IMG/VR virus record: IMGVR_UViG_3300003323_000307
Coordinates: 7,669-71,668 of that record
DNA: 64,000 nt
Strand: one strand, 5' to 3'
Source: a virus
Part shown: positions 13,884-48,280 of the stretch, piece after piece
How positions within the stretch are numbered: the stretch's first letter is position 1
Layout: each line of letters begins with the position of its first letter
The notes under the pieces: model-generated
Seen by the model: only the letters and a program-made list of their open reading frames with translations
Database searches by the model: none
Told to the model about the DNA's origin: nothing
Translations under genes and position numbers: made by a program

Positions 13884-14237
13884 GACTCAACTCACCCAGC
13901 TCGTTTGTGAAGTAGATGTCTCGAATACCAACCGAGTGTATCAATTTCATACAACGGCTGCAAGGCCGCGATAGTGCGGGTTCTCCTGCGTTGTTCACAC
14001 GGGCTACATAGATGCTACAACCCTTCAGTGAACTGGTAATAGACGCCTCCGGATTACCATCTCTTCAGCATGGTGGGTAGCTCCGTTGTGATCGATGAAC
14101 GGGTCACAACGGAACACATTCGTTTCTACTTCGAGGAGCCTAGAACCTCGGACAAGGCAGCAGCCGTGTTTCCAACGGTGATTGCTGCTTTGTGCAGCCC
14201 GGAGAGCAATACTGATAAAACGGTCTTGCCTGCCCAT
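13852..14237 (-). pseudogene. cytidine/dCMP-deaminase-like gene interrupted by a -1 frame change near 14045
   Basis: HAE motif lies in ORF 14025-14237. The PCSRC zinc motif (LKGCSIYVARV...SRPCSRC) lies in the -1 frame, which ends at 13852. Confidence 0.7.
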
Positions 14238-15025
14238 AGGAAGCCCTTAACAATTCGCTTGATGCCGTCTGTGACTTCTGCTGCTATATCTCGTACCCAG
14301 GCTAAGACTTTGTCAAACATATCCGGACCTTCTGATTCATCGTCAGGTAGTGGTTCTGTGAGCTTGGCGATCACAGCAGGATCGCTGTAGACATCCACGC
14401 ACGTTGTACAGTTGGTCTTGCAGGGAGATCCGTCTTCGAGAGGGAACCGGCACCAGAAGGCCAGCTCGAACAGCTCTCTGGGCATGTCTGCCAGGATCTC
14501 CGTCTTGGTCATCTCCTGCAACGGACGTTCGATGGTGATGTTCCTGCGACGGGCGCAGATGTACATCATCCGGGTCCGAGCCTTGATTACTTTGCCGTTG
14601 GGGTACTTGGTGGAAGTGTCACCGACAATGTTCCAGTATGCAAGGCGAGTGATCCAGGGCCTTGCCCGCAGGATTGTTCCGGCCATAGCCATAACAATCT
14701 CGGGGTCACGCATTCTCTGCATATGAGGGGCTGGGGGTAGAACCGCAGCAGAGTCAATGTACTCGTAGTTCGTCAGTCCTTGCTTGTCGAACCAGGAGAG
14801 AACTTTTTCAACTGCCTGCGACTCATAACGCATTCTATGACGGCTAGTGAGGTGGCAGTGGTGAATGAGGACTCGTTCACCAGCAAGGAGGAGTTTGTAA
14901 GTACCGTAAACGGAATCAATACCACCTGAAAGATTAGATAAAACAGTATGAGTCTGGTCAGCGTCATTGAATTCCCGGTTCTTGAGGAGGTATTTTCCTC
15001 CAAGCTCCCACTCATTGTGAGACAT
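14126..15025 (-). CDS. QueC-like PP-loop ATPase
   Basis: SGGIDS PP-loop; PL..MTK.EI; C-terminal Cys cluster WCRFP....PCKTNCTTC. Confidence 0.7.
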   Translation of the reverse strand: MSHNEWELGGKYLLKNREFNDADQTHTVLSNLSGGIDSVYGTYKLLLAGERVLIHHCHLTSRHRMRYESQAVEKVLSWFDKQGLTNYEYIDSAAVLPPAPHMQRMRDPEIVMAMAGTILRARPWITRLAYWNIVGDTSTKYPNGKVIKARTRMMYICARRRNITIERPLQEMTKTEILADMPRELFELAFWCRFPLEDGSPCKTNCTTCVDVYSDPAVIAKLTEPLPDDESEGPDMFDKVLAWVRDIAAEVTDGIKRIVKGFLWAGKTVLSVLLSGLHKAAITVGNTAAALSEVLGSSK

Positions 15026-15143
15026 AGCAACTCCCTGGCAGGTTAAAGGTCTGAGACCTCTATTGTACCAGGGAGAGCTTAAGTTACAGCAACCACAGAT
15101 CGCAGGTTAGTTGCGTCCAGTCCCCATGAACGGTGGTTGCCAG

Positions 15144-15223
15144 TGGACCTACCCAGATTCGAACTGGGGTCCTGCTGGATTCCGCATGCGGTCTTATCCA
15201 GCAGTCGAAACCAATCTAGGCCC
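15144..15223 (-). ncRNA. minimal tmRNA-like RNA (tRNA-like domain only)
   Basis: GGGCCUA GAUUGGUUUCGAC [UGCUGGAU...AUCCAGCA] GGAC CCCAG UUCGAAU CUGGG UAGGUCC A. It has G3-U70, A73, and a stemless D-loop ending UUCGAC as in ssrA 5' ends. Confidence 0.75.
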
Positions 15224-15364
15224 ATTTCACGCTCTCTAAAGGGTTTCTGCACTTCAACCGTATACATTTTCGGTGTGCAGACTTCCTTTAACACTTTACC
15301 GTTTCTCTTCAGGTGTAATGCCGATGTATAGCGGCGAACGGACGCGGCGTGATTGCGTAACCCG

Positions 15365-15438
15365 TGGACCTACGGGGATTCGAACCCCGAACCTACTGCG
15401 TGCAAAACAGTCACTCTTCCAGTTGGAGTTACAGGCCC
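15365..15438 (-). tRNA. tRNA-Ala(UGC)
   Basis: Complete 74-nt cloverleaf: acceptor GGGCCUG/UAGGUCC with G3-U70, D-arm ACUC/GAGU, anticodon loop UUUGCAC, T-arm CGGGG UUCGAAU CCCCG. CCA is not encoded. Confidence 0.92.
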
Positions 15439-15746
15439 TGGGACCGGTTTTTGATGAGCAGAACCCGTCTCCCGAAACTGCTTGGTAGGTTTGTATACCC
15501 CGCCTACCGTCAGGGCCAGATAACTCACCCTCTATCTGGCAAGGGGATCTTGTCCATACGTATTATTACCCTCGTCAGGTACCCGCATCTAGGACTGAGA
15601 TGGTCAAACCCTCGTGCACAGGGCTTGATCGGCAATGTGTCTGTGCATGGCGAAATTCAAGCACAGCCAGTGATTGTTCCGAGGTTCCGTCTATGGATTT
15701 AACAAGGTGCCCCTCGGGGGAACCTGCAACCCCCGAGGTGTCTACG

Positions 15747-15775
15747 ACCGTAGCACAGGAGGATGAGGGTGTCAA
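15747..15775 (-). promoter_or_regulatory. sigma70/HrdB-type promoter for the RNA gene cluster
   Basis: TTGACA-17 bp-TACGGT on the minus strand. Confidence 0.7.
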
Positions 15776-16302
15776 GAGGTTTCGGGGTATGACTTCCCAA
15801 AGTTGAGCATGATGATCCTGGACAAGTCCCCTGGGGTGAAGTACTGAGGGTTAGTGCCAGGTTCAAGATCAATACCCGCACGCTTGTAGGCTTCCCCCAC
15901 AAGCTGTGAGCAGATCATCTTCCCTGAGTTGACCACACGCTTGTTGACCCTGCGTGACATCCAGCCGCCTTCATAGAAGTGGTTCAGGCCGATGGCCAAG
16001 AAGTCCAGCCAACTGTAGGGAGTGTCTTCAAGACGTATGGCTTCTTCACAGATGGAGTCCCGCTGATCATCTGTGAGGTTGAAGCGAGAGTACATGACTT
16101 CGGTACCCTCATATTTGTCTAACTTACCTATGGTGGCCCCGTTGGGAAGGGACTCAATTATATAATCATCGTGAAGAACGATGAACGAGTGACTGTAGAT
16201 GGCCCAATCGCCAATGAGCCCCTGCATAACGCGTACGCAGCGGCCCATTAGTGTATTCGAATATGAGAGCCCGATGTCACCCGGCTTTGGTACATATCCC
16301 AT
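15772..16302 (-). CDS. permuted papain-like NlpC/P60 (YiiX/YaeF-like) amidase
   Basis: PGDI, YSHSFIV (His), PYSW, ICSQLV (Cys), TPGDL, in circularly permuted order. Confidence 0.75.
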   Translation of the reverse strand: MGYVPKPGDIGLSYSNTLMGRCVRVMQGLIGDWAIYSHSFIVLHDDYIIESLPNGATIGKLDKYEGTEVMYSRFNLTDDQRDSICEEAIRLEDTPYSWLDFLAIGLNHFYEGGWMSRRVNKRVVNSGKMICSQLVGEAYKRAGIDLEPGTNPQYFTPGDLSRIIMLNFGKSYPETS

Positions 16303-16367
16303 TACGGGCTCCTAGGATAGGTTTTACTAACCTACCTATTTTACCATCTGTGACGGACCGTTATTAC

Positions 16368-17102
16368 TTAGATGCCCCGAACAGAGCTTCCTTCCAACCG
16401 TTTAGAACCGCGAGACCAGCGTCCGCAAGAGCTGCAACGATATCGCTGATAAACTGAAACGCTAGTGTAAGCACGTCCCTGACGAACAAGATCAGTGCTT
16501 CCACAGGAAGGGCAACTAGCATCCACGCCATCATACAGACCCGGATTAGGGTGGGAAGGAGTCCACGCCCGCAGTGAGACATATAATTTCTCCGTAATTT
16601 TTACATCGTGTATATTGTAGGAGCGCATTTCGTTCCAGGCTTGGTTGCTTCCATTAAGGCACTTACGCCAAAGATCGAAACCTGTATGCTTAATTTTAGC
16701 ACCAAGATTGAGCCTCTGGACAACATAGTCCAGCTTGTTCGAGGGGAAGCGGAACTTACGCTTGACAACCTTCATCAGATCTACAGATACATACGGAGCT
16801 GGAGGAGGCATTCCAGCCTCTAGAAATTCCTTGTTCAACCACGGCAGGTCAAACCTGTCCCCGTTGTAGTGGACTACCACATCGGCTTCATTGAGCATGT
16901 CCCACGCAGCCTGGACCATGGCATCTTTACCGTTGTGATGTACGGAATAGTAGTGGACTTTCTTTTTGTCCATCCACTTCCCCGCAAAACACAGAACCTC
17001 ACCAGAGTCAACTATTTGATTGAGGCCGATGTTCTGGTCCCACAGCCCCCAGCAATACACCAGGTTCGGCCCGGTTTCGATATCCAAGGTCAGTACGCGC
17101 AT
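16368..17102 (-). CDS. DnaQ/RNase H-like 3'-5' exonuclease with C-terminal Zn ribbon
   Basis: Start MRVLTLDIETGP; HYNGDRFD; YNIHDV; CPSCG...CSSCG. Confidence 0.8.
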   Translation of the reverse strand: MRVLTLDIETGPNLVYCWGLWDQNIGLNQIVDSGEVLCFAGKWMDKKKVHYYSVHHNGKDAMVQAAWDMLNEADVVVHYNGDRFDLPWLNKEFLEAGMPPPAPYVSVDLMKVVKRKFRFPSNKLDYVVQRLNLGAKIKHTGFDLWRKCLNGSNQAWNEMRSYNIHDVKITEKLYVSLRAWTPSHPNPGLYDGVDASCPSCGSTDLVRQGRAYTSVSVYQRYRCSSCGRWSRGSKRLEGSSVRGI

Positions 17103-17103
17103 T

Positions 17104-17322
17104 TTACAACGCTTTCTTAAGGCACTCTTTAGAACACCAGTGCGTAGTTTCCGCGAACATGGCATCTCCAAATGTGCTGATGGAAACTCCGAATGGTTCC
17201 AGTACATACCACCCGGGGAGGTAAGCCTCCAAGCCCTTCTGTCTACAGTCTACACCATCACAATAGATAACATCTACCTCAAGAGGGCCTAGCTCGGTGT
17301 TAAGCCTTACGGGTTTCTTCAC
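17104..17322 (-). CDS. hypothetical Cys-containing protein
   Basis: Tightly packed ORF; CDGVDC...WCSKEC. Confidence 0.5.
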   Translation of the reverse strand: MKKPVRLNTELGPLEVDVIYCDGVDCRQKGLEAYLPGWYVLEPFGVSISTFGDAMFAETTHWCSKECLKKAL

Positions 17323-17582: not shown

Positions 17583-18047
17583 TTAATGCTCATGAGTATG
17601 CCCATCTTCCTGAGCCACCTTGAAGGTGACCGTCTGGTCCGCCGACTTCTGGAAGTCGAACGTGATGGTGGTAGTCTGCCCCACCTTAAGGTGGCCCTTG
17701 AGGTTGATCAGCATCACATGGGGTGTACCCGTGAAGACCACTTCAGAGCGCTTGGGGAGTGGTACGGAGTCCAGCTTGACCATCTTCCCGGACTCAATGG
17801 TGTGCAGCTCAGCAGAGACCGACGTGGGGCTTGAGACAGCTAGGAGAGTGTCATTGGCGGCGCCCTTGTTGATCACCTTCAGGGTGGCGTACGTGTCCTT
17901 CCCCTTGTGACCCGTAACTACGAATCCAGGCCGCACTGTGAGGTCAGGCTTAGGGTCACTTCCGGAGTTGAAGAACAGGTACCCCAGAACGGCCAGAGTA
18001 ATGGCTATCAGGATGATGATGTACTTCTTGTACTTGTCAGACTTCAT
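17583..18047 (-). CDS. PCu(A)C-family copper chaperone
   Basis: N-terminal TM anchor; AELH-x6-M...HVML copper ligands; LKVGQTTTITFDF; C-terminal HTHEH. Confidence 0.8.
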   Translation of the reverse strand: MKSDKYKKYIIILIAITLAVLGYLFFNSGSDPKPDLTVRPGFVVTGHKGKDTYATLKVINKGAANDTLLAVSSPTSVSAELHTIESGKMVKLDSVPLPKRSEVVFTGTPHVMLINLKGHLKVGQTTTITFDFQKSADQTVTFKVAQEDGHTHEH

Positions 18048-28311: not shown

Positions 28312-29687
28312 TCATTCGTCCCTCGCCCACTTGGCCATAGCTTCCGCAATACCGGAGAAACGGCCATCCAGGACTTGCTTGATGGCCATGTCTACTGACC
28401 CTTTGGCTCGGACGTGGTGCACCTGCACGACGCGTCCTTGCCCCCTCCTGCACACCCGTTTAATGGTTTGCTCGATATCGGCAGGTAGTTCGGAGTGTTC
28501 GAGGAAGACGACGTCTGTAGCTTCTGTGAGGCTGATGCCTTCTTTGAGGCTTGGGATGGTCGCGACAAGAACTTGCGGACCATCACTAGCTCGCCATTCT
28601 GCAATGACAGATTCACGCCTTCCTGGGAGAACGGAACCTGTGACAAGTACCGCTTGGCTGCCCAGAGCATCAGCGATCGCGCCAGCCGAATCTTTATACC
28701 ATACGTAAACCACCACTTTAGATCGGCGATCTGTGAGGAAATCTTTGAGCCAATCGATTTTCGGGTTAGCTTTCGTAGGCGGTACAGTCGCAATCTGACG
28801 CTGTTTGACATAGAGAGCACCAGAGCCTTTGAGAAATTCAGTATGTGCCAGATCTTCATGCTCCAGTACATAATCCTTCTTCGCTTTCTTGATCATCTTG
28901 ACTACCGAGGCAGGCAGCTCCACCTGGTATTCATGCTCCTGATATTCCAGGCTGGCTAGCTGCGGGATCTCAGCCACCGTACGACGCATGCTGAACTGGG
29001 CAAGCTCTTGCTTGAACTGCTCTACGTAGTCTTTGCGTATGTTGCCGACTGTGGTTGACCAGGGATTTGTATAGACCACACACCGGTCGTTGACAAATTT
29101 CCAGTACGAGGAGTATTTCTTTTTATCGTAAAGATGAAAATACGGGAAGAAGTCTCCGCCATCACGCACAAACGGGGTACCCGTAAGAACCCAGATGGGT
29201 GTTTCCCGGTTACTACTAGCAGATAGTCTCGTTTTAAAGGTATGCTTCGTCCACGCAGAATTACGGCCACGGAGTCTGTGCCCCTCATCGAAGATGTACG
29301 CTGACCACTTACGGCCTACAAGTAGTCCCCCGTACGTATAGTCTCGACCTTTTTTCGCCGCCCAGTTGTGGTAAGACGTGAGTATGAAATCCGCGTTGCT
29401 CGAAAGTGCTTCGCTACGAAGTTCAGTACCGGATCCGTCAGCCGATACCACAGTGGCATCCGGGCAGAAGGCATTGATCTCCTTTACGGTATTAGGTATA
29501 AGGTACGCTGGGCATGTCCATAGAACTGGGTTTCCAGTCCTCTGGATAAGTTCCCAACCTGCCATAATACTAGGTCCAGTTTTCCCAACTAAACTCCGGG
29601 CTCATCAAAAAGCCCGGCAAACCTCCCTGAGTTAAGTAGGAAGTCTCTAGACTCTACCTGGTAGTCATCCAGAATTTTTTCTGGCAT
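28312..29687 (-). CDS. SNF2-family helicase with Walker A interrupted by a stop and frame change at 29587-29594
   Basis: 5' piece MPEKILDDYQ...FDEPGV* (29687-29589); 3' frame GKT..., DEGH, LTGTP, EGISL, Q...RVCRRGQ. Confidence 0.85.
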
Positions 29688-35300: not shown

Positions 35301-35628
35301 TGTCGTTACCTAACTCTAGGGGGATTGCCTTCAATTTGATGAAACGATGGCTGGAACCCCTTCGGGTTCTCTGTGAAACAGTAAGTCCGCCCCATATTCC
35401 ATACTCGAAGCGTGCATCGCAGGCTTCTTTCAGACATTGGAGGCGGACTGGACATTGTGAGCAGATGGATACTGCTAGGATTTCATCCCCGGGCTCCTCG
35501 GAAAACCATAAGTCTACAAGACTAGGTTCTATCTGAACGAGTCTCCCGCATTCGGCACTGGACTGCCAAGAAAAGTAATCGTGGGCAGAGTCATCCGATG
35601 ACGCGTGATTGTCTCGGGCTTCTGCCAT
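35293..35628 (-). CDS. whiB: WhiB-family transcription factor
   Basis: W...A.C, ICSQCPVRLQC, YGIWGGLT..QR. Confidence 0.9.
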   Translation of the reverse strand: MAEARDNHASSDDSAHDYFSWQSSAECGRLVQIEPSLVDLWFSEEPGDEILAVSICSQCPVRLQCLKEACDARFEYGIWGGLTVSQRTRRGSSHRFIKLKAIPLELGNDNE

Positions 35629-47022: not shown

Positions 47023-47859
47023 AGGCCCTCCTGTGAGCTGTGGGAGAGAGCTGTGAGAGGGGGTTTTCCCTGGTCTGGAAGTATTGAAACATCTTGATAC
47101 AAGTAGTTGCCCCGGGAAACCATGTGTACTTTGAGGATGAGGAAACTGAGGACGTTTGAGGACTGGCTGAAACCGCCTCTCCCCTCGCGCTATACGCGGG
47201 AAGATCCTTTTACTACTATTTAATATAGTATTGGTGTCTGACCTGCGGTTTTGTCCTGAGGAGGGGTTGGAGAGGGTTATATGGAATCGTACTCGTACAC
47301 AGGTACTCAGGTTGCCCCAGACAACCGTTTTAGGGGTTTTTTGGTGCAAAGTCCGTGTTTACTCGGGCTAAAGTGTACCTGTCCGTACTCAGGTTTTGAG
47401 GGGGATAAATGGATTTGAACGGGTTCAAAAAGATCTCTGAGGCTTGGCACCTTGCACGTGTTAGGTCAAGGGTTCTGACTAAGCGCTTGCTTAGTCTGTT
47501 CGGCATTGTCGAACGCTCTGGTGTTGTGTCAGATTACCCGGAAGTAACATGATGGAGTGTGAACTACTAATTTGCTACTAATTTGTCCCGGGTTAGTAGT
47601 TCGCGGGTTCAAGGCGGGCTGTGATGATCTTTTTTCATGCTGTTGGCCCACGTTTCTTTGAGGACGTACCGGTGTCGTGGTAATGGGGGTGGTTCACAGG
47701 GAGGGGGAGAGGGGGCGAGATGGTGAACGCTTTCACAAGGTGAACAGGATCCGGGTTGTTCTGTCTGTCCGGGATTCGGCATGGAAAAGGTGCGGCTGTT
47801 GAAAGAGGCCCTGTGAAATACGGCGTACAGAAATACCGGGCAGAGGTCTTTTCACACAA

Positions 47860-48280
47860 CCGGGGTAATGGGGTAGGTCCTGATACAGGGGGTGGGGTAG
47901 GGGAGGATAGGAGGACTATGGGGGTATGGAGGCGGGGGTTATCAGCCGGGCATTACATATCCGTGCATAGATGTATGTGCATGGATTGTGTACTTGATTT
48001 AGTTCAATGTTTTATTGTTGTGTATAAATGTACATGTTTACTTCTTTGTTTAAGTGGGTATGGGTAGAGGCTAGGGGGTGGGTGTGGTAGGGGGTATGGG
48101 GTGGGGTAGGTGGGGTGGGTACCGTGGGGTATGTATGGGTACATACGAGGTATAGGGTGATGGGATAGGTATTGAATAGATTATTTCATTTAATTTCTTT
48201 TTGAAATAAAAATAAATAAAAATAAAAATTTAAAATAAAAATTAATTTAATTTATTTGCAATGCATTTAGTGTTTATTAG
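47860..48280. repeat. low-complexity G-rich tracts followed by an AT-rich tract
   Basis: GGGGGTGGGTGTGGTAGGGGGTATGGGGTGGGGTAGGTGGGGTGGG, then AAATAAAAATAAATAAAAATAAAAATTT. Confidence 0.8.

What the first reader, a model, noticed from the sequence alone, without database searches (positions are those of the whole stretch)
15144..15223. Mini-tmRNA: alanyl-tRNA-like domain with no mRNA-like domain
Seen: the 5' end GGGCCUAGAUUGGUUUCGAC parallels ssrA 5' ends (stemless D-loop ending UUCGAC). An 8-bp P2-like helix UGCUGGAU/AUCCAGCA is capped by a small CCGC/GCGG hairpin instead of ~270 nt of pseudoknots and tag ORF. A GAC linker, T-arm, G3-U70 and A73 follow. Known: these are the AlaRS and SmpB determinants of tmRNA, some actinophages carry full tmRNAs, and tagless forms are known from jakobid mitochondria. 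Inference: an SmpB sponge or dominant-negative inhibitor of trans-translation, or a tagless ribosome-rescue RNA. The adjacent tRNA-Ala has the same acceptor 3' strand.
Basis: partly seen in the sequence, partly recalled or inferred. Interest (0 to 1): 0.88.

Follow-up and report, generated by a model that had tools for sequence, protein, structure and literature searches.

The report
Phage tmRNA without its tag-coding part
An 80-base phage gene encodes only the tRNA-like part of the ribosome-rescue RNA tmRNA, a form reported once before in mycobacteriophage DS6A and found here to be a widespread, mostly unannotated family in phages of actinobacteria.

Summary
Window 15223..15144 (minus strand) folds exactly as described. 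It has a 7-bp acceptor stem with G3:U70 and A73, a stemless D-loop ending UUCGAC, an 8-bp P2 helix capped by a small hairpin, a GGAC linker and a T-arm.

Given alone, its best Rfam family is tmRNA RF00023 (41.3 bits, gathering 47), aligned end to end with about 300 internal positions missing. ARAGORN does not call it.

It is not a one-off. Three motif scans of IMG/VR gave well over 100 loci. A covariance model built from them shows compensatory changes in 18 of 23 pairs over 98 distinct sequences. G3:U70 is nearly invariant even where the pattern left it free (66 of 70).

The model also hits Streptomyces phages Shaeky, LuckySocke, BRock and Riptide, where it is unannotated, and mycobacteriophage DS6A. 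The DS6A "TLD only" tmRNA is already in print and is said to inhibit E. coli tmRNA (PMC4131195, PMC11915505).

Verdict: a real, new member of a known but barely described kind. It most likely competes with host tmRNA. Function in this phage is untested.

The parts
15144..15223 (-). Whole TLD-only (ORF-less) tmRNA gene, 80 nt from G1 to discriminator A73
   Evidence: RF00023 scores 41.3 bits, E 6.9e-16. Own model R1 scores 95.5 bits.
15217..15223 (-). Acceptor stem 5' strand GGGCCUA (G3 at 15221)
   Evidence: Pairs 7/7 with 15145-15151. G3:U70 is found in 97 of 98 distinct family members.
15204..15216 (-). Stemless D-loop analogue GAUUGGUUUCGAC
   Evidence: Aligns to the RF00023 consensus GAucuGGaUUCGAC. 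The GG and UCGAC columns are conserved.
15196..15203 (-). P2-like helix, 5' strand UGCUGGAU
   Evidence: All 8 of 8 pairs of this helix show compensatory changes in the family.
15192..15195 (-). Purine-rich internal loop AAGA (family consensus AAAR)
   Evidence: Column counts.
15182..15191 (-). Capping hairpin CCG-CAUG-CGG (family consensus CCGCAYGCGG)
   Evidence: The motif also occurs in DS6A and four Streptomyces phages.
15173..15181 (-). Single A, then P2-like helix 3' strand AUCCAGCA
15169..15172 (-). GGAC linker before the T-arm, as in tmRNA
   Evidence: Aligned to the GGAC of the RF00023 consensus. Conserved columns: G 88, G 79, A 96 and C 89 of 98.
15152..15168 (-). T-arm CCCAG-UUCGAAU-CUGGG
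   Evidence: All 5 of 5 pairs covary and 100% of cells are paired.
15144..15151 (-). Acceptor 3' strand UAGGUCC plus discriminator A73 (U70 at 15148). No CCA is encoded.
15364..15438 (-). tRNA-Ala(UGC), 140 nt upstream on the same strand, with the same acceptor 3' strand
   Evidence: ARAGORN. Rfam tRNA 53.4 bits.
14126..15025 (-). Next gene downstream on the same strand: PP-loop ATPase-like ORF (299 aa). It is context only and is not a conserved partner.
   Evidence: Weak Pfam hits to QueC and ThiI. No relatives found in viral contigs.

Best explanation
This is a phage gene for an ORF-less, TLD-only tmRNA of the mycobacteriophage DS6A type. The proposed pathway is inferred, not shown. The RNA is co-transcribed with the neighbouring tRNA-Ala and flanking genes, then trimmed like a tRNA. 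Because CCA is not encoded, the host enzyme adds it. Host alanyl-tRNA synthetase charges it with alanine through G3:U70 and A73. Host SmpB binds it at the D-loop/T-loop elbow. The RNA therefore enters the trans-translation pathway in competition with host tmRNA. Having no resume codon or tag reading frame, it cannot add the degradation tag. The net effect in the infected cell is reduced SsrA tagging. Whether the ribosome is then recycled or trapped is open.
For: Shown here:
- The anatomy matches a tmRNA tRNA-like domain.
- RF00023 is the best Rfam family on the isolated element: 41.3 bits, aligned across model positions 1-374 with about 300 internal positions replaced by 11 nt.
- Relatives pass the tmRNA gathering score of 47: BRock 64.5, Shaeky 59.3 and LuckySocke 57.1 bits, and the S. 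lycii copy 54.2 bits.
- Covariation is strong. On 98 distinct sequences, 95.2% of cells are paired against 66.9% when shuffled, and 18 of 23 pairs show compensatory changes.
- With a pattern that left the acceptor stem free, 66 of 70 distinct hits have G3:U70 and 67 of 70 have A73, while pairs 4-7 vary freely. The four G3:U70 exceptions are two chance hits, one register shift and one damaged copy. This argues for selection on alanine charging.
- Model R1 hits DS6A at 28478-28557 with 66.1 bits, and the DS6A copy has the same hairpin motif.
- In cultured Streptomyces phages, and in L006, L008 and L019, the element sits within or next to tRNA genes.
- No SmpB gene is present in the phage record, so host SmpB would be used.

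Against: - The window element scores below the RF00023 gathering cut-off (41.3 against 47). It was missed by Rfam in whole-window mode and by ARAGORN.
- There is no expression, charging or SmpB-binding evidence for this element or any relative I examined.
- The primary paper behind the inhibition claim (Mao et al. 2009) is not held, so I know it only through two citing passages.
- Streptomyces phage Riptide carries both a full tmRNA (92.9 bits) and a TLD-only copy. That is awkward if the only role is to block trans-translation.
- Most family members were collected with patterns derived from the element, and the alignments were fitted to the model, which favours the structure.
- SmpB binding is inferred from D-loop conservation only.
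Confidence: 0.55

Rival explanations
1. Productive tagless rescue. The charged RNA, with SmpB, frees ribosomes stalled on broken mRNAs by adding one alanine, without marking the protein for degradation. Release then depends on other host factors. The benefit to the phage is ribosome supply and protection of its proteins, not inhibition.
For: G3:U70 and A73 are nearly invariant, which a pure decoy would not need. The element co-occurs with a full tmRNA in Riptide. CDS-less tmRNAs of jakobid mitochondria and some plastids are thought to help with incomplete mRNAs (passage of PMC11915505). It lies among phage tRNA genes, which serve translation.
Against: The only experiment in print, as cited, reports inhibition of tmRNA function, not rescue. 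No release mechanism for peptidyl-Ala-RNA without a stop codon is evident. No release factor or hydrolase gene is a conserved neighbour: the best neighbour cluster covers 17 of 123 distinct elements and is a terminase.
Confidence: 0.22
2. Pure SmpB sponge. The RNA only titrates SmpB (and perhaps AlaRS or EF-Tu) away from host tmRNA and never needs to be charged or to enter the ribosome.
For: [quoted passage not shown] The D-loop and T-loop are conserved.
Against: Conservation of the alanine identity pair is strict while neighbouring acceptor pairs vary (66 of 70 and 97 of 98). A full 7+5-bp acceptor/T stack is kept in 121 of 123 viral loci.
Confidence: 0.13
3. A structured-RNA decoy, or a cofactor for something other than trans-translation. 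Examples are binding RNase R or a defence nuclease as tmRNA/tRNA fragments do in the AcrIIIA1 system, donating alanine to a non-ribosomal transferase, or serving as an attachment site for integration into ssrA.
For: tmRNA TLD-sized fragments (~90 nt) co-purify with a phage anti-CRISPR protein and bind RNase R (passages of PMC11662646). Chromosomal copies lie next to metabolic genes in Microlunatus.
Against: There is no conserved protein partner next to the element. The element occurs in phages without tRNA-type integration: Shaeky has a serine integrase, and DS6A is listed as using tRNA-Lys. An attP needs only the 3' part, yet both halves are kept and covary.
Confidence: 0.07
4. A decayed duplicate of tRNA-Ala or a deletion remnant of a tmRNA gene, without function.
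For: It has the same acceptor 3' strand as the neighbouring tRNA-Ala. It scores below Rfam's tmRNA threshold.
Against: About 100 distinct homologues keep the fold through compensatory changes. The window copy is at most 77.5% identical to any of the 99 others aligned. Acceptor stems of the tRNA-Ala and the element differ in LuckySocke, Riptide and Shaeky.
Confidence: 0.03

Closest known systems
TLD-only (CDS-less) tmRNA of Mycobacterium phage DS6A (tmRNA Website tmID 11587; 'Phage__Mycobacterium.9')
   Same: The architecture and length match (80 nt): acceptor stem with G3:U70 and A73, stemless D-loop, short P2 helix, A-rich loop plus CCGCACGCGG hairpin, and T-arm. Model R1, built without DS6A, scores it 66.1 bits over all 80 positions. 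Neither copy is annotated in its record.
   Different: The sequences are diverged. The DS6A D-loop reads GGUGGUCGAC and its linker is CAC rather than GGAC. The window phage is unrelated in gene content: its PolA is below 30% identical to any cultured phage. The window copy sits beside a tRNA-Ala.
Full-length actinophage tmRNAs (Mycobacterium phage Yucca and other Bxz1-like phages; Streptomyces phages Forrest and Riptide)
   Same: The tRNA-like domain is the same: GGGCCUG...GGUUUCGAC at the 5' end and GGAC-AGGGG-UUCGA.U-CCCCU-CAGGUCC-A at the 3' end, as in many TLD-only members. They lie in tRNA clusters.
   Different: They are 268-435 nt long with an annotated tag peptide. The window element has 11 nt where the Rfam model has about 300 positions.
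CDS-less tmRNAs of jakobid mitochondria and Mallomonadaceae plastids
   Same: They have lost the mRNA-like region and keep a tRNA-like domain (passage of PMC11915505).
   Different: They are organellar, vertically inherited and pair with a nucleus-encoded SmpB. No direct sequence comparison was made here. In one search only the best family of the clan (RF00023) was listed.
tRNA-Ala
   Same: It shares G3:U70, A73, a 7-bp acceptor stem and a 5-bp T-stem with a UUCGAAU loop. In this window it even has the same acceptor 3' strand.
   Different: The element has no D-stem and no 7-nt anticodon loop or anticodon. ARAGORN does not call it. The Rfam tRNA model was not listed for it in the 801-nt search at E up to 10 and, if it matched, ranked below tmRNA.

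Membership tests
tmRNA, standard one-piece (Rfam RF00023) | tRNA-like domain: 7-bp acceptor stem with G3:U70, discriminator A, T-arm, and stemless D-loop of the GGnUUCGAC type | tested here: met
tmRNA, standard one-piece (Rfam RF00023) | P2 helix joining the two halves of the tRNA-like domain, with a GGAC linker to the T-arm | tested here: met
   8 bp here, and all 8 pairs covary in the family. The linker aligns to the model's GGAC.
tmRNA, standard one-piece (Rfam RF00023) | mRNA-like domain with a resume codon and tag reading frame | tested here: not met
   Only 15 nt (AAGA, CCGCAUGCGG, A) lie between the P2 strands. The model's roughly 300 internal positions are absent.
tmRNA, standard one-piece (Rfam RF00023) | Pseudoknots PK1-PK4 | tested here: not met
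   There is no sequence to form them.
tmRNA, standard one-piece (Rfam RF00023) | Score at or above Rfam's gathering threshold (47 bits) | tested here: not met
   The window element scores 41.3 bits. Relatives BRock (64.5), Shaeky (59.3), LuckySocke (57.1) and the S. lycii copy (54.2) pass; DS6A (43.2) does not.
DS6A-type TLD-only tmRNA | A complete tRNA-like domain in standard (not permuted) order, about 80 nt, with nothing but a small capped helix between the halves | tested here: met
DS6A-type TLD-only tmRNA | Detectable homology to the DS6A element | tested here: met
   One covariance model scores the window at 95.5 bits and DS6A at 66.1 bits, both over positions 1-80. They share the A-rich loop plus CCGCAYGCGG hairpin.
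DS6A-type TLD-only tmRNA | Inhibits host tmRNA when expressed | not testable with these tools
   Reported for DS6A or a similar molecule in citing passages only. The primary paper is not held.
tRNA (Rfam RF00005) | Cloverleaf with a D-stem and a 7-nt anticodon loop | tested here: not met
   There is no D-stem and the loop is 4 nt. ARAGORN makes no call and calls only 1 of 20 relatives, as 'tRNA-???'.
Two-piece (permuted) tmRNA (Rfam RF04321) | The acceptor piece precedes the coding piece, and the two pair in trans | tested here: not met
   The 26.9-bit match (gathering 47) is a chimera of the T-arm of tRNA-Ala and the 5' end of the element across 218 nt. On the element alone it scores 13.5 bits.

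The most novel reading that the evidence does not exclude
TLD-only tmRNAs are not a DS6A oddity. They are a large, conserved and uncatalogued class of actinophage small RNAs that must be alanylated to work. On this reading they reprogram host ribosome rescue rather than merely soak up SmpB. Examples would be tag-free rescue that shields phage proteins when mRNAs are cut during infection or defence, or repeated alanine addition to stalled chains. The invariant A-rich loop plus CCGCAYGCGG hairpin would be a functional determinant retained from the P2 internal loop of actinobacterial tmRNA.
Probability: 0.25. Interest if true: 0.75.

Novelty: new member of a known kind. Interest (0 to 1): 0.5.

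Why it matters
Trans-translation is the main ribosome-rescue system of bacteria. A phage RNA that enters or blocks it is a direct handle on how phages manage host translation quality control.

In the passages I could read, one phage example (DS6A) is named. This work shows the same RNA in well over 100 viral contigs, in at least four cultured Streptomyces phages where it is unannotated or overlaid by a hypothetical CDS, and in 28 bacterial assemblies.

It also shows that the alanine identity pair is under strict selection. That makes the choice between 'sponge' and 'charged competitor or rescuer' testable in tractable Streptomyces phage-host pairs.

On the practical side, ARAGORN, and Rfam at default settings on the 64-kb window, miss the window's gene. 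A dedicated covariance model would fix annotation.

Tried and rejected
- **Expression.** The look-up of sequencing runs listed no RNA holder, only one partial DNA holder.
- **Promoters and terminators.** The consensus scan of 14000-16500 found none, which is uninformative for an actinophage.
- **Close relatives of this phage.** The search for related loci with the downstream PP-loop ATPase gave none. blastn of 2.5 kb around the element hit only tRNA-Ala genes. blastn with the 80-nt window element found only T-arm-sized matches.
- **Conserved protein partner.** All-against-all BLAST of flanking ORFs at 154 loci (123 distinct elements) gave no cluster covering more than 17 distinct elements. The top clusters are terminase, DnaB/RecA-like ATPase, endonuclease VII, Toprim, PD-(D/E)XK nuclease and WhiB. 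Rejected.
- **Concerted evolution with the phage's tRNA-Ala.** The acceptor stems differ in LuckySocke, Riptide and Shaeky. Rejected as a family trait.
- **attP for ssrA integration.** Rejected. Both halves are conserved, and the element occurs in phages with other integration systems.
- **Two-piece tmRNA.** Rejected.
- **Co-occurrence with a full tmRNA.** Seen in Riptide only. Forrest and Yucca, which have full tmRNAs, have no R1 hit.
- **Prevalence in bacteria.** 1 of 121 genomes of the S. lycii family had an R1 hit, and that one was the query genome itself. Only 38 first-look candidates per genome were scored, so sensitivity was limited.
- **Unused count.** My ad-hoc detector was too strict (123 of 161 loci). 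Its counts are not used.
- **Possible homology of the hairpin.** The hairpin may be related to the purine-rich P2 internal loop of four host tmRNAs. This rests on reading the sequences by eye and is unproven, because the host P2a is much longer.
- **Literature.** Mao et al. 2009 is not held. Seven searches found no description of the family beyond DS6A: 'tmRNA / tRNA-like domain / phage / lacks', 'mini-tmRNA' (0 papers), 'DS6A / tmRNA', 'tmRNA / SmpB / phage-encoded / inhibit', 'tmRNA-like / phage', 'tmRNA / Streptomyces phage / tRNA', and 'tmRNA / mycobacteriophage / SmpB'. Supplements were closed, so the tables of PMC11915505 and the tmRNA Website may list further phage TLD-only entries that I could not see.

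Full report
**What is there.**
It has a 7-bp acceptor stem with G3:U70, no D-stem, an 8-bp helix capped by a 3-bp hairpin with a 4-nt loop, and a 5-bp T-stem with a 7-nt loop. The MFE is -34.2 kcal/mol, z is -2.98, and 1 of 200 shuffles folds as well. CCA is not encoded. A normal tRNA-Ala(UGC) lies 140 nt upstream on the same strand at 15438..15364 and ends in the same UAGGUCCA. The flanking ORFs run the same way.

**Standard detectors.**
- ARAGORN finds only the tRNA-Ala in the window. Rfam at gathering thresholds does the same.
- In an 801-nt E-value search, the only tmRNA-related hit was a chimeric 26.9-bit match of the permuted-tmRNA model. It joined the T-arm of the tRNA-Ala to the 5' end of the element.
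- Given just 98 nt, cmscan ranks tmRNA RF00023 first: 41.3 bits, E 6.9e-16, gathering 47. The alignment spans model positions 1-374, with about 300 internal positions replaced by 11 nt. Three lower-scoring families of the same clan were dropped.
- So the tmRNA model beats every other family listed, but the element does not reach Rfam's threshold.

**The genome.**
The window lies in a 71.7-kb linear IMG/VR virus record estimated 85% complete.
- It has no SmpB gene and no full tmRNA; the only RF00023 match in the record is the tRNA-Ala.
- It does have a WhiB gene (53.7 bits). Among the 14 control genomes only Corynebacterium has one. This points to an actinobacterial host.
- Its PolA is below 30% identical to any cultured phage.
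- The only sequencing run holding part of the region is a root metagenome DNA run.

**A family, not a one-off.**
- *First pattern.* It covered only the D-loop end, the GGAC linker and the T-loop, and found 20 IMG/VR loci. In 20 of 20, plus the window, an unconstrained 7/7-bp acceptor stem with G3:U70 and A73 flanks the match. The P2 helix differs in sequence but still pairs. There are 15 distinct sequences.
- *First model.* A covariance model (R1) re-aligned these. 93.9% of cells pair against 65.1% when shuffled, and 18 of 23 pairs show compensatory changes. Sliding the partner by 1-3 columns drops pairing to 37-51%.
Of 123 viral matches, 121 have a 7/7 acceptor stem. One has 6/7 and one has 5/7.
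- *Third pattern.* It left the acceptor stem entirely free and gave 107 loci with 70 distinct sequences. 66 of 70 have G3:U70 and 67 of 70 have A73. Pairs 4-7 take four or more pair types. The four G3:U70 exceptions are two chance hits with unpaired T-stems (L208, L209), one register shift (L214) and one copy with a damaged 3' strand (L206). CCA is encoded in 9 of 70.
- *Large alignment.* On 100 sources, R1 found 100 full-length matches (50-100 bits). Over 98 distinct rows, 95.2% of cells pair against 66.9% when shuffled, and 18 of 23 pairs show compensatory changes. G3:U70 occurs in 97 of 98.
- *Family consensus.* GGG..-GA.UGGUUUCGAC-P2-AAAR-CCGCAYGCGG-A-P2'-GGAC-T-arm-..UCC-A.
- *Distance.* The window copy is at most 77.5% identical to any other aligned member.
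- *Caveats.* Most members were collected with motifs taken from the element. For the second pattern, U70-A73 and the hairpin were fixed by the pattern. The alignments were fitted to the model.

**Cultured phages and the published precedent.**
- blastn with one member hit Streptomyces phages LuckySocke, GiJojo and pSt2308 over its full length, and Alone3, Shaeky, BRock and Riptide over 67-80% of it. Its 3' third hit the annotated tmRNAs of Streptomyces and Mycobacterium phages.
- R1 scores Shaeky 85.2, LuckySocke 72.0, BRock 65.3 and Riptide 51.2 bits. In these records the site is unannotated and lies inside tRNA clusters. In GiJojo a hypothetical CDS is drawn over it.
- RF00023 itself scores BRock 64.5, Shaeky 59.3 and LuckySocke 57.1 bits, all above threshold.
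- R1 also hits Mycobacterium phage DS6A at 28478-28557 with 66.1 bits, in an unannotated gap. That copy has the same A-rich loop and CCGCACGCGG hairpin.
- DS6A is the published case. [quoted passage not shown] - Both cite Mao et al. 2009, which I could not read.
- Genome announcements for Shaeky and Riptide do not mention the element.

**Bacterial copies.**
- Of the 57 genome-contig hits, 28 have a 7/7 acceptor stem starting GG. By their record titles, 21 of these 28 are Actinomycetota. This distribution is biased by the hairpin motif used in the pattern.
- 14 of the 28 share flanking genes with viral loci.
- Four such genomes also carry a normal full-length tmRNA of 128-184 bits.
- In a sample of 121 genomes of the S. 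lycii family, only the query genome had an R1 hit (limited sensitivity).
- The element is therefore mobile-element cargo, not a core bacterial gene.

**Mechanism.**
Shown:
- The RNA has the sequence and structure of a tmRNA tRNA-like domain.
- It lacks any tag frame.
- It is conserved by compensatory change.
- It keeps the alanine identity elements almost without exception.
- It travels with phage tRNA genes.
- It has no conserved protein partner: the best neighbour cluster covers 17 of 123 distinct elements.

Inferred from established tmRNA biology: tRNA-like processing, CCA addition, alanylation by AlaRS, SmpB binding at the elbow, and EF-Tu delivery to ribosomes with an empty A site.

Because no template follows, it cannot tag. 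I therefore favour a charged competitor of host tmRNA (0.55). The strict G3:U70 and A73 conservation argues against a pure SmpB sponge (0.13), although the cited experiment found that inhibition did not require charging. Productive tagless rescue (0.22) fits the charging signal and Riptide's possession of both forms. Other decoy roles (0.07) or decay (0.03) are unlikely.

**The hairpin.**
The invariant A-rich loop plus CCGCAYGCGG cap has no counterpart in tRNA. In four host tmRNAs a purine-rich internal loop (RAAG on the 5' side, GAGAAG on the 3' side) flanks a short GC helix in P2. Phage tmRNAs have a related 3' motif. The cap may be the retained base of that region. This is a by-eye comparison and the host P2a is much longer, so I hold it loosely.

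**Verdict.**
Three points appear to be new relative to the passages and searches I could make: the size of the family, its presence unannotated in cultured Streptomyces phages, and the selection on alanine identity. Supplements and the tmRNA Website were not visible to me.

Noticed in passing
L025 / PV654398.1 (Streptomyces phage Riptide) 83298-83374 and 94862-95130: One phage carries both a diverged TLD-only copy (R1 51.2 bits; D-loop GGUUAGAU, linker UGAA) and a full tmRNA (RF00023 92.9 bits). Two other full-tmRNA phages, Forrest and Yucca, have no TLD-only copy.
   Followed up: partly
L192 1647-1725, L198 6817-6895, L150 35-114 (Microlunatus genomes): These are chromosomal TLD-only copies with degenerate D-loops. 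In two species the copy lies 33 nt downstream of a biotin-carboxylase/carboxyltransferase gene. M. parietis also has a normal tmRNA elsewhere. It could be a domesticated copy or the edge of an island.
   Followed up: partly
window 15029-15077 (-): A long imperfect hairpin (CUCCCUGG...CCAGGGAG) ends 4 nt before the start codon of the PP-loop ATPase-like ORF at 15025. It was picked up only as a spurious mir-561 match. It could occlude the ribosome-binding site.
   Followed up: no
window 15247-15280 (-), and 4-8 nt upstream of the element in many loci (L003, L004, L013, L017): A stem-loop precedes the 5' end of the element. In relatives it is a GC-rich hairpin without a U-tract. It may be a terminator of the upstream gene or a processing signal.
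   Followed up: no
window 14126-15025 (-), 17583-18047 (-), 16368-17207 (-): The phage carries a PP-loop ATPase-like ORF (weak QueC/ThiI hits), a PCuAC copper-chaperone domain protein and an RNase H-like exonuclease fused to a zinc ribbon.
   Followed up: no
window 35365-35568 (-): A WhiB-family gene (53.7 bits) suggests an actinobacterial host for this 52% GC phage.
   Followed up: partly
window 44001-48000: There is a strong negative AT skew (about -0.2) with raised GC (0.55-0.59), unlike the rest of the window.
   Followed up: no
PP725410.1 (Streptomyces phage GiJojo) 17025-17102: A 'hypothetical protein' CDS (gene 44) is annotated over the TLD-only element. This is probably a mis-annotation.
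   Followed up: no
L053 898-976 (-); L206: L053 is the one member with A3:U70 instead of G3:U70. L206 has a shortened 3' acceptor strand. Both may be inactive copies.
   Followed up: no
L008, L019, L021, L009: These more distant members have other cap sequences (CCGCUUGACGG, CCCAUUGGG, CCCGAAGGGG, CCACAAGUGG), and three of them encode CCA. The cap structure, not its sequence, is what is general. Hosts may lie outside Actinomycetota.
   Followed up: no
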